From Rhynchopus sp. YZ270_cl-10 (lineage: Eukaryota), in the NCBI GenBank assembly GCA_964035575.1, contig OZ037843.1, positions 1 to 64,000 of the forward strand: a stretch of DNA of 64,000 nucleotides. Direction: 5' to 3'. A program made the position numbers and the translations under genes. Below, one piece after another: positions 13,801 to 16,893 of the stretch (positions are counted from its first letter, which is position 1; each line of letters starts with the position of its first letter). Under the pieces are notes generated by a model, which worked only from the letters and a program-made list of their open reading frames with translations, had not been told where the DNA came from and made no database searches.

Positions 13801-16800
13801 GGCCTGACGACGGGACAGACGTCGCACCTGACAGGGTCGGCAGAGTTGCGCATCCGGGAGAGCATTGCGGTGGCGTACCAGAAAAAGGTCGCATCTTCCT
13901 TTCTGGAGCGGGGTGCTATGTGTGTAGGGATTGCCACCCTGAAGCGGGAGCCGTGTGTGGAGGTAGATGTGGCACCGTCTGCAGAGGACATGGACCGGTT
14001 TGGACGCCGCAGTGCAGGGGCCGTGGAACCTCTCTGTGACGATGCGAACCCTGACGACGATATGAGTCGTCCTGCAGACCGAACGGAGGAGCAGCAGGGG
14101 AAGCGCAAGAGGGACGTGAAGCCGGACCACGTGGAGCCACCGAGGAAGCGGACCGGGAGGTTCGATTCGGCCACCGTGATTCCGGAAGGGCCTGGTCTCG
14201 ATGTGGTGCGTGAGTGGGAGTTTTTGCGTGAGTGCCCGGCAGCGCAGAGGCCTCGGGCGACGGAGCAGGCGGCCAAGCTGGGAGCCTCGAAGGTGACTTG
14301 GTCGTTTGTGGCGGGGGACTGTGCTTTTGAGGCTTTGCTCTTCGCCACCGGGCGCACGGATTTGACGGTGGAGGGTCTGCGCCAGGCGGCAGTGAAGAAG
14401 GTCCAGGGCCGCGCTGATCTGTCGAGTGCGGCTGTCCCTAATTTTGGGGTCTGGCAGCGGCTGATGACGAGTGGGGACAGAGGAGACGAGCGTACGTGGG
14501 CGGATGCCATTGCAGTGGCGGGGGCAGGGGAGGCTCTTGAGGTATCTGTGGTCATCCTCAACGAGTTCGCCCGCCCTTCTCTGATGGTGCCAAGAAAACG
14601 GCCTAAGGCAGTGGTCCTTCTCCTCCACTCGGGTGACCAGGATGCGGCAGATGGATCCGGCAGTATCCCGGGACACTACGAGCCCCTCACCATGGACCCG
14701 GCTCTGCAGCAGCACATCCTGTCTTTTGAGGCCACAGGTGGTAAGGGGGAGTGCCAGTCAGAGCGCCCCATGGCTTTTGTGGGAGCGAGGGAGGCGGAGG
14801 CGTCGAACACTTTCCTGCAGTGCGAACAATGCAGCAAGCTCTTCGATGCGTCGGACGCACACTTCTGCTGTCACACGTGTGGTGGCTTGGCATGTCTGCA
14901 CTGCGCTCAGGGGTCCAAGCACTGCCCTCTGTCGCAAATTGGCAGGGCGGAATATTTCAGTGCCCTGTCTTTTTTGCACTCGAATGTTCCGGCTCAGGCT
15001 GCCTCTGCGGAGGGGAGCGGAGACCCACCACCTAAACGGGCTCCTTCTCCAGCAGTGCCAGCTCCCGAGGGCGAGGACGTCGAGGAGGTAGACATGCCAA
15101 TGGCGGGCGAAGAGGGGCAGCAGGCAGAACAGAAGCAGCAGAAGCACGAGAAGCAACGGAAACAGCAGAAGCAGCAACAACAAAAGGCGGACCAGGTGAA
15201 GAAGGAAGCGTTGCAGCGTGCGTCGGACGCGTGGCAGCAAGCCCTGGAGGTACGGCGGGAGCATCGTCGGTCGTGGGGACCGGATTTGGCCGCGCTTCGG
15301 GGCACTTTTGGCGACCGCCAGCAGGAGTTGAGTCGTTTCCTGGAGGAACAGAATGTGCGTCTGGACCAGGCGAAGGCGGCGGACAGGCATCGTGTGGAGG
15401 AGCTGACCGCCAGGCACAAGCGGGAACTCGCAGAGGACGCGAAGAAGATGCATGCGCAGTACTTGGAAGACTGCGATCGGCACCCCGAAGCAGGAGAGTC
15501 GCTCCGGGCGGAGTATGACAGGCAACGCTGCGAGAGGCATTACGCCATCGCAGCTAAGCATGAGTCGGAGCAGAAGGCGACCACTCTGTTGTTGACGGCG
15601 GTGAACCTCTCCCGACAGCTGGAGGCAGAACGCATGGTGGCATACGGGCGGTGCTTTGGGGTGGTGTGCGAAGGGCGGCTATTCCTCCCCTGCCATGCGG
15701 TGCGGAGAGCGGTGGGCGACGACCCTGAAGGACTCGAACCTGACTGTGTCGGCGACTGGATGGCTCTCTTTGGTCCTCAAGGTGCTTCTCCGTGCCCGGG
15801 CGAGTTCCTGTACTGCTGGGCGACACAGCAGCCGTGGAGTGGGAACGGGGAGGGGGACGGTGATTGCCCGGAGTCGGTGGTCGCCCGTCAGGCGGTTAGG
15901 AAGATAGCAGGGGAGGCCGGATACTGCGACACCTGGGGCAAGACCAGCGCGGTCATCGTCGTTCGGGAAGGCAGGGTCAGCTGGGGAACCCCTTCTCGGG
16001 ATCAGCTGGAGGAGGAGGTGGGGCGACAGGCCGAGGCGGCAGACACCGAGGTGCGTGTGAAGGTGGAGGAGATGGATGATGATGAGCAGGAGCAGGAGGA
16101 GGACCTCGACACCGCGATGGAGGGGGCGGATCGCTCGCATTCTCTGTCAGTGGAAGGCATCCCTGACCAGAAGAAGCAAGCGAGGGTGAGGGAATTGCTG
16201 AGGGCGCAGAGCGAGGCTTGGATGTGGACGGAGGAGGAGCGGACGGAGAGGGGGGGTCTTTTCCCGTGCCTCACCATGGGGTCGCCGGTGCCTTCTTCTG
16301 TGACGAAGTGGATCTCCCTGTTCCACTACCGTCAGGGAGAGAAACAGGATGGCAGACCCTTGTTGTCACTCCCCCTCTCTACCGCTACTTTCACTCAGTG
16401 GTATGAGGTGATGAAGGTGGTGGGTTTGCATGAGTGGTCGGTTCAGGAAAAGTGCAAGGCAAAGTCGACGTTGCATGCCCTGACGGACAACCGGAGCAGT
16501 AGGGGGCAGGCCTTTGCAGCGGAGAGTACAAGGAGGGAGAATGAGGCACGAGCGGCTCGAGAGGGAATAGGCCGACAACCTCAAGCCTCCTCTTCTTCTT
16601 CTTCTTCCTCCACCTCTCATGTCCCTATTACAACACCAAAAAAAAAAAAAACAACACCAAAAAAAAAAAAAACAACACCAAAAAAAAAAAAAAACAACAC
16701 CAAAAAAAAAAAAAACAACACCAAAAAAAAAAAAAACAACACCAAAAAAAAAAAAAAAAAAAAAAAAAAAAAAAAAAAAAAAAAAAAAAAAAAAAAAAAA

Positions 16801-16893: not shown

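What the first reader, a model, noticed from the sequence alone, without database searches (positions are those of the whole stretch)
16631..16855. Telomerase-like reiterative synthesis at the element's 3' tail
Seen: six CAACACC units separated by almost constant A14 runs (21-22-nt period), mirroring the 18-22 nt repeats at the 5' ends of A, B and N1. Inference: this RT repeatedly realigns on a short template segment. An RT copying a G-rich (GGGUUUGC) RNA onto a chromosome 3' end would produce exactly the C-rich-outward array seen at 1-5527. The element RT is therefore a candidate for the repeat-adding enzyme. This link is speculative.
Basis: partly seen in the sequence, partly recalled or inferred. 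Interest (0 to 1): 0.75.

Follow-up and report, generated by a model that had tools for sequence, protein, structure and literature searches.

The report
Stuttered tail of truncated diplonemid retrotransposon
The six-fold repeat is real and likely arose when the copying enzyme of a retrotransposon in a diplonemid-like protist stuttered while inserting a shortened copy, a known habit of such enzymes; nothing found here ties this enzyme to making the 5.5-kb telomere-like array, whose apparently reversed orientation remains an open question.

Summary
The block is as described: six CAACACC units, with A14, 14, 15, 14, 14 between them, then A68-TCATAT-A38. It lies just inside an 11-bp target-site duplication that closes a 9.4-kb RT plus restriction-like-endonuclease element (A). 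It is not the family's normal end: 36 of 36 other stored A proteins reaching that point carry on with a different C-terminus, so this copy is cut about 103 codons early and joined to a 20-nt linker plus the reiterated tail. Slippage on poly(A) that duplicates non-A letters is published for L1/Alu. The 18–22-nt 5' arrays of A, B and a third element (C, not N1) start at a predicted HDV-like ribozyme cleavage site (C only partly fits), which supports reiteration by the RT during insertion. The link to the (GGGTTTGC)n array is unsupported. The elements hold at most 8 nt of template, and the array lacks A/T linkers. Short tracts join A, B, other repeats and unrelated DNA, with sense strands in both orientations. 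The RT resembles R2/L1, not TERT. TERT presence and array polarity could not be tested; polarity is the better lead.

The parts
16631..16855 (+). Reiterated tail block: 6 x CAACACC with A14/14/15/14/14 between, then A68-TCATAT-A38
16618..16637 (+). 20-nt linker (ends in the first CAACACC) joined to the truncated A ORF; source unknown (natural 3' end after an internal deletion, or a foreign RNA end)
   Evidence: no second match in the window with up to 5 substitutions; other copies differ from residue 2958 on
7435..16855 (+). Element A, non-LTR retrotransposon copy, ORF cut at residue 2957 (base 16617)
7424..7434 (+). Left copy of the 11-bp target-site duplication TTATTCTCCCT
   Evidence: empty site near 30920-30931
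16856..16866 (+). Right copy of the target-site duplication
7441..7638 (+). 5' array of A: 11 identical 18-nt units GGGGACCATTTTTTTACA, preceded by ATTACA (7435-7440)
7621..7772 (+). Predicted HDV-like ribozyme of A; its first base is the first G of the repeat unit
   Evidence: RF02682, 26.5 bits, E 0.53, below gathering score; descriptor P1, P1.1, P2, P3, C-GAA
7747..16893 (+). Stop-to-stop ORF of 3048 codons: RT (Pfam RVT_1, residues 1388-1627), REL endonuclease motif (1866-1950), two OTU-like motif pairs seen by eye only; reads through the tail
6738..17240 (+). Non-coding element C/H (about 1.1 kb without A): 5' array of 5 units 6738-6840, degenerate HDV-like core about 6876-6937, poly(A) 17201-17240; interrupted by A
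   Evidence: P0183 shows the same C start behind another A fragment
5528..6734 (-). N1: piece of an A copy (A 9293-10493) whose sense 3' end abuts the C-rich strand of the array
17240..17755 (-). Upstream part of the same inverted A copy (A 8788-9303), separated from N1 by the C/H insertion
1..5527 (+). (GGGTTTGC)n array, about 691 units, G-rich on plus; all 7 internal imperfections lie in bases 136-1008
31280..31349 (+). Short internal (GGTTTGCG)8.8 tract directly behind the poly(A) of a second H copy, same orientation as the long array
19189..29989 (-). Related element B (RT+REL, frameshifted into two ORFs), with a 5' array of 7 variable units and a predicted HDV-like ribozyme (29887 to about 29680)

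Best explanation
The block is the 3' junction of a truncated copy of a CRE-like RT-plus-restriction-endonuclease retrotransposon, and it was likely written by the element's own reverse transcriptase slipping back repeatedly on a poly(A)-tailed RNA end at the start of target-primed reverse transcription; no evidence found here links this enzyme to synthesis of the GGGTTTGC array. Shown: the 11-bp duplication, the empty site, the truncation, the unit structure, and 5' arrays that begin at a predicted ribozyme cleavage base. Inferred order of events on the first strand: the nicked target primes on poly(A) (T38, ATATGA, T68). The RT copies 7-8 nt of non-A sequence, lets go of the short, weak RNA:cDNA hybrid and re-anneals about 21 nt back in the poly(A), five times. 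It then reads the rest of the 20-nt linker and jumps to an internal A position, about 1.3 kb short of the normal end. At the RNA's 5' end, presumably set by the ribozyme, it would add a few untemplated T and re-engage about 18-22 nt downstream, just behind a U-run, giving the 5' arrays. Finally the cDNA would pair with the target through the 5-nt TCCCT overlap.
For: Unit structure and lengths. Duplication and empty site. 36 of 36 other stored A proteins that contain EGIGRQPQAS continue with TSAGRGTT, none with the window's HVPIT (members). Four other copies carry internal deletions (P0179, P0194, P0239, P0244). Contigs of two other studies run on 1340 and 1339 letters past 16580 (records 8 and 15); I infer a short-word assembly could not cross A68. 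Reiterated 18-22-nt units sit at junctions in A, B and C, and P0130's translation implies a further 21-nt array behind an A fragment. Linkers between units vary in B (2-6 A) and C (0-2 extra A), as untemplated additions would. A ribozyme descriptor hits 3 cores in 38.7 kb on both strands, 2 of them with P1 starting on the first G of the A and B units, and with a compensatory P1.1 pair (CC:GG in A, AC:GT in B); 5 local shuffles gave 0, 0, 1, 0, 0. [quoted passage not shown] R2 ribozyme cleavage at the 5' junction, untemplated additions and microhomology priming (PMC3774820 and PMC2718515, passages).
Against: The tail units, and A's eleven 5' units, are nearly or fully identical, which DNA-level slippage after one duplication would also give. 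No DNA of another copy's 3' end could be read, so it is unknown whether CAACACC-(A)n is A's natural end; the only hint is NNTK(K)n upstream of a truncated copy in P0179. The ribozyme descriptor was written after seeing these sequences, the Rfam score is below threshold, and C fails the descriptor (P1 has only 4 contiguous pairs). Because every unit carries the P1 5' strand, 5' arrays could be inherited in the RNA rather than made at each insertion. A-run lengths come from one assembly and were masked in the read layer.
Confidence: 0.62

Rival explanations
1. One duplication arose at insertion and was then expanded as a minisatellite by replication slippage or unequal exchange; the RT did not cycle.
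For: Tail units differ by at most one A and A's 5' units are identical. The genome holds variable-number 8-mer tracts inside one repeated element, from 0 to about 11 units. MoTeR junction tract variation is put down to replication slippage (PMC7367193, passages).
Against: The arrays sit exactly at insertion junctions in three elements, and in B and C the linkers differ from unit to unit. The copy looks young (99% to other copies, intact duplication).
Confidence: 0.2
2. The RT does not slip on one RNA but jumps end to end across several short oligoadenylated RNA fragments (CAACACC-A14; 5' fragments ending at the U-run).
For: B units are GGGGACACG + U2 or U7 + A2-6, and P0130 implies GGGGTTCAT6 + A7-8, shapes that tailed 5' fragments would have. 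End-to-end template jumping by R2 is recalled, not read here.
Against: Five tails of 14-15 A would need fragments of near-constant tail length; no RNA data were available.
Confidence: 0.1
3. One reading: the element RT is the repeat-adding enzyme and writes the C-rich strand of the array onto chromosome 3' ends from a G-rich RNA.
For: Sense A fragments run directly into the C-rich strand at three different breakpoints (N1, P0236, P0307). The 7 testable junctions at that side of the tracts show 0, 2, 3, 3, 3, 3, 5 nt of overlap against 0.70 expected (P about 0.0002). The H poly(A) is followed by the G-rich strand at 31280, as priming from a C-rich 3' end would give. Imperfections cluster in the first kilobase, as at a contig end.
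Against: No template longer than 8 nt in A or B. The array is a pure 8-mer without A/T linkers. Tracts also join B in the opposite sense (P0289), H, X and unrelated DNA. The overlaps fit telomerase seeding or microhomology joining equally well. The RT is R2/L1-like. Short internal tracts are common (35 stored proteins read through one), so a contig can begin in an internal or fused array.
Confidence: 0.04
4. The block is an assembly or base-calling artefact in a homopolymer region.
For: Long A-runs are error-prone; the region was masked, so no read support was seen.
Against: The CAACACC units are exact, the flanking duplication is exact, and analogous arrays occur elsewhere in the window and in P0130 and P0179.
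Confidence: 0.04

Closest known systems
L1/Alu A-tail expansion and Drosophila I-factor 3' tandem repeats by RT slippage (PMC3415434, passages; I-factor paper seen only as cited there)
   Same: Short non-A interruptions of a poly(A) tail are duplicated at the 3' junction during target-primed reverse transcription; already compared with telomerase.
   Different: Here an RLE-type element, six units at a near-constant 21-22-nt step, on an internally truncated copy, with similar-period arrays also at 5' ends.
Trypanosomatid CRE clade (CRE1/2, SLACS, CZAR; PMC12278014, passages)
   Same: Single long ORF with RT and REL motif, poly(A) end, target-site duplication, euglenozoan host.
   Different: Target is other repeats, not the spliced-leader gene. 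REL spacings differ from the published pattern (14 vs 7-8 and 8 vs 9-10 residues; RPGD). ORF about 3000 codons with OTU-like motifs. Clade placement not tested by a tree.
MoTeR1 and FoTeR, fungal telomere-inserted RT+REL elements (PMC7367193, PMC12857005, passages)
   Same: RT+REL, 5' tandem repeats, neighbourhood of telomere-like tracts, short interstitial tracts between elements.
   Different: Those insert in the telomere repeat with 5' ends outward and coexist with telomerase healing. The intact-junction copy here sits in another element, and array junctions are at internal breakpoints.
R2 and L1Tc/ingi HDV-like ribozymes (PMC3774820, PMC5814959, passages)
   Same: Predicted HDV-like fold whose cleavage base is the element's 5' end; a short non-coding partner with the same kind of 5' end (C/H, like NARTc or R2 SIDEs).
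   Different: The first 18-22 nt are repeated 5-11 times; R2 junctions in the passages read show single 13-28-nt duplications of target sequence.
Telomerase (TERT + template RNA)
   Same: Repeated copying of a short template by realignment (works like, for the tail and 5' arrays).
   Different: No TERT RNA-binding domain, no dedicated template for the 8-mer, products confined to insertion junctions.

Membership tests
RLE-type non-LTR retrotransposon | RT domain of the non-LTR type | tested here: met
   Pfam RVT_1 E 2.6e-15; family profile best matches R2 proteins, E 8e-39 over profile positions 211-921
RLE-type non-LTR retrotransposon | C-terminal CCHC, RHD/N, E, PD, D/E endonuclease motif | tested here: met
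   Found in A, B and P0125 with a relaxed pattern; spacings differ from the SLACS/CRE pattern quoted in PMC12857005
RLE-type non-LTR retrotransposon | Poly(A)-type 3' end and target-site duplication | tested here: met
   11-bp duplication with empty site
CRE clade | RT groups with CRE/SLACS/CZAR/MoTeR in a tree | not tested
Trypanosomatid CRE/SLACS/CZAR | Insertion in the spliced-leader RNA gene | tested here: not met
   Target is element C/H; no SL RNA family hit in 5500-44500 (a diplonemid SL could be missed by Rfam)
Telomere-targeted elements (MoTeR/FoTeR, SART/TRAS type) | Natural ends inserted in the telomere repeat | tested here: not met
   A, B and C have ends in other repeats; A and B meet the 8-mer at internal breakpoints. 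Only the H poly(A) at 31280 abuts a tract, without a matching 5' flank
Telomerase | TERT architecture (RNA-binding domain, TERT-type RT) | tested here: not met
   Only RVT_1 in Pfam; no TERT chain among 9 and 21 PDB hits up to E 10
Telomerase | RNA template of more than one repeat unit | tested here: not met
   Longest in-register match 8 nt in A (9.4 kb) and B (10.8 kb), 6 nt or less in C/H; a template elsewhere in the genome is not excluded
Telomerase | Processive repeat addition on telomeric primers | not testable with these tools
   Needs purified RT
Host telomerase explains the array | TERT and telomerase RNA in this genome | not testable with these tools
   No genome held; no statement on diplonemid TERT or telomere motif found
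HDV-like ribozyme | Nested double pseudoknot P1, P1.1, P2, P3, P4 with catalytic C | tested here: inconclusive
   Descriptor met in A and B with compensatory P1.1, not in C; Rfam hit below gathering score; cleavage untested

The most novel reading that the evidence does not exclude
This diplonemid's chromosomes end with the C-rich strand (CAAACCCG)n at the 3' terminus, the reverse of telomerase-built telomeres. A CRE-like RT with a ribozyme-defined RNA and a fixed ~20-nt reiteration step primes on those ends, and perhaps extends them from G-rich repeat transcripts.
Probability: 0.08. Interest if true: 0.9.

Novelty: new variant of a known kind. Interest (0 to 1): 0.32.

Why it matters
As it stands, this is a clean natural record of a retrotransposon RT cycling 5-11 times on 18-22-nt templates at both ends of its RNA, next to a predicted ribozyme cleavage site. 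That makes the family a good in-vitro subject for the old question of how telomerase-style repeat addition arises from retroelement RTs. It does not show telomerase replacement. The 8-mer motif was not found in print, and its orientation at the window start deserves a genome-wide check: reversed telomere polarity would be a major surprise.

Tried and rejected
No whole genome is held, so tails of other copies, contig ends and TERT could not be surveyed in DNA. Scans for element A found no relative in metagenome, viral or prokaryote-genome contigs. The 8-mer x4 gave 0 viral and 22 metagenome loci, none with other similarity to the window, so they say nothing on polarity. Sequencing runs: 14 rows from 10 studies hold part of A; no RNA holder listed, which is no evidence on expression. 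One search masked 16581-16690, so A-run lengths were not checked. One search (29560-41900) listed no contig of the lengths that run past A's break, a weak hint that H and X are not A's lost 3' UTR (24 of about 20,700 pieces shown). The 8-mer tract's bin was covered in all 3 runs laid, but depth there is no copy number. A two-strand profile of the array's translation returned no long pure-repeat proteins among the best 150 of 2148 hits, so contig-end polarity could not be read from proteins. Rejected: 'N1 has 5' repeats' (they belong to C); 'the block is the family's natural ORF end' (36 of 36 against); a fixed G-strand end register (junctions end in at least four registers); tRNA genes (0); OTU domains in A by Pfam (no hit; only B ORF2 at E 0.0012, below cut-off). 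Five paper look-ups were not held. Motif searches: one search gave 4 unrelated-looking titles (listing only) and one search gave 0. In the D. papillatum paper, 7 supplements held as text gave one 'telomer' row (TCAB1); figures and any files not held as text could hold telomere data.

Full report
Observation. Parsing 16601-16880 gives six CAACACC units separated by A14, A14, A15, A14, A14, then A68, TCATAT and A38 ending at 16855. A14+CAACACC occurs five times in the window, all here. The block is real as assembled. No reads could confirm the run lengths, because the read layer masked 16581-16690.

Host. The window's cathepsin B is closest to Rhynchopus euleeides (71%), with Flectonema and Diplonema proteins at 63-68%, so the host is likely a classical diplonemid. 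No genome is held.

Nested anatomy. Self-comparison shows three layers. An inverted piece of element A (5528-6734 plus 17240-17755, minus strand) abuts the long array. Into it, a non-coding element C/H inserted (6738-17240, poly(A) at 17201-17240, 11-bp duplication ACACCCCTTTT). Into C/H, element A inserted (7435-16855, 11-bp duplication TTATTCTCCCT; the empty site is in a second H copy near 30920). A profile of A and 19 relatives matches R2 proteins best (E 8e-39), then L1 and group II intron RTs, with no TERT among 21 hits up to E 10. B (minus strand, 19189-29989) is a related element.

The block is not the family's normal end. Searches with the RT region and the C-terminal region, plus cluster look-ups, returned proteins of other A copies, many on megabase contigs (only candidates up to 1675 aa were searched, and 15 of 20 and 15 of 48 members of the two largest clusters were listed). 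All 36 that contain EGIGRQPQAS continue with TSAGRGTT, most for about 103 more residues, and none has the window's HVPIT. Some may be the same locus in different assemblies. Contigs from two other studies run on 1340 and 1339 letters past 16580, so I infer about 1.3 kb is missing. The window copy breaks at 16617 and is joined to a 20-nt linker that has no other match in the window. Four other copies have internal deletions, and P0179 has NNTK(K)n in front of a truncated copy, so the linker may be A's natural 3' end. A foreign RNA end is equally possible.

The 5' arrays start at a predicted ribozyme cut. Rfam gave a weak HDV-ribozyme hit in A's leader (E 0.53, below gathering). A descriptor written after inspection found 3 cores in 38.7 kb on both strands. 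Two have P1 beginning on the first G of the A and B repeat units, with a compensatory P1.1 pair; five shuffles gave 0-1 cores. C has the same core by eye but only four contiguous P1 pairs and fails the descriptor. In R2 the ribozyme cuts at the 5' junction and junction variation is made anew at each insertion (PMC3774820, passages); L1Tc has such a ribozyme too (PMC5814959, passages). A has 11 identical units, while B and C units differ by 2-6 and 0-2 linker A, as untemplated T on the cDNA would give. Because each unit carries the P1 5' strand, arrays could also be inherited in the RNA.

Mechanism (inferred). First-strand synthesis starts on poly(A) and slips back about 21 nt five times while the hybrid is short and A:T-rich. 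It then jumps to an internal A position, runs to the ribozyme-set 5' end, reiterates 18 nt there, and pairs with the target through TCCCT, which both junctions share with ATTACA. Duplication of non-A interruptions by L1 ORF2p slippage is published, is described as reminiscent of telomerase, and cites I factor and R2 (PMC3415434, passages; those primary papers were not held). DNA-level expansion and end-to-end jumping on short tailed RNAs remain rivals.

The array link. For the link: sense A fragments run into the C-rich strand at three breakpoints (N1, P0236, P0307). Seven junctions whose partner sequence is in the window overlap the repeat by 0, 2, 3, 3, 3, 3 and 5 nt, against 0.70 by chance (P about 0.0002; five were read from protein translations, so their registers are inferred). 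The H poly(A) is followed by the G-rich strand at 31280. All 7 internal imperfections of the long array lie in its first 1008 bases, as at a thinly covered contig end. Against the link: A and B hold at most 8 nt in register with the repeat, and the array has no A/T linkers. Tracts join B in the opposite sense and also join H, X and unrelated DNA. Thirty-five stored proteins read through short tracts of up to about 12 peptide repeats, and one repeated element carries 0 to about 11, so internal tracts are common and a contig may start in one. The overlaps fit telomerase seeding or microhomology joining equally well and do not fix polarity. In the nearest telomeric relatives, MoTeR and FoTeR, telomerase healing and slippage explain such tracts (PMC7367193 and PMC12857005, passages; overview in PMC10088271, passages). 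TERT could not be sought. The D. papillatum paper notes SLACS-like RTs but gave no telomere motif in the passages and text supplements searched; PMC7052976 had only a reference-list mention.

Earlier notes. One unreviewed note on another genome describes a diplonemid RT/OTU element that likely inserts in an 8-base telomere-like repeat. It is a lead only; here the intact-junction copy is not in the repeat.

Verdict. The block is real, and it is most likely RT slippage of a known kind on a truncated CRE-like copy, in a family with unusually regular 18-22-nt reiteration and predicted 5' ribozymes. The telomerase-substitute claim is unsupported (about 0.04). The array's polarity is unresolved and is the lead worth following. 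Interest 0.32.

Noticed in passing
window 7621-7772 (+), 29887-29680 (-), 6821-6937 (+): [quoted passage not shown]
   Followed up: partly
window 1-5527 and 31280-31349: Both 8-mer tracts are G-rich on plus, begin with GGTTTGCG and end GGGTTTG|TG; if base 1 is a chromosome end, telomere polarity is reversed. Motif not found in print.
   Followed up: partly
proteins P0194, P0189 (other contigs): A fragments that appear sandwiched between two inverted H poly(A) ends, read from translations; P0208, P0217, P0219 and P0234 show H poly(A) followed by 5'-truncated A.
   Followed up: no
proteins P0277, P0282, P0387, P0418-P0435: A repeated element, absent from the window, with a constant junction to the C-rich strand and a variable tract, on more than 10 contigs.
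   Followed up: partly
window 18439-19188 and 29991-30680: About 750-bp repeat X, probably tandem (loose end in run X3); B sits between two copies, with about 75 bp of the unit missing and no poly(A).
   Followed up: partly
window 7830-9200 and 27990-29530: Long CAG-type low-complexity stretches in the 5' part of A and B, read in frame as S/N-rich sequence; other A gene calls start at residue 493.
   Followed up: no
window A residues about 851/969 and 2190/2309; B ORF2 196-278: OTU-protease-like motif pairs and a FYVE-like zinc finger (E 0.0011, below cut-off) in the element proteins.
   Followed up: partly
window 32845-33930 and 42712-43758 (-): Two near-identical intronless cathepsin B genes in a 1.8-kb duplication.
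   Followed up: partly
window 44610-52655 and 54643-62688 (-): Tandem 10-kb duplication (99.4%) carrying 2681-codon DUF3638/DUF3645 frames.
   Followed up: no
window 36559-37755: 1.2-kb imperfect palindrome (95%) built from a repeated short gene-like segment.
   Followed up: no
window 41508-41940: Short CCGG-rich repeats (11-nt unit at 41892-41916) in a bin with very high contig depth in run X1; possibly another abundant satellite.
   Followed up: no
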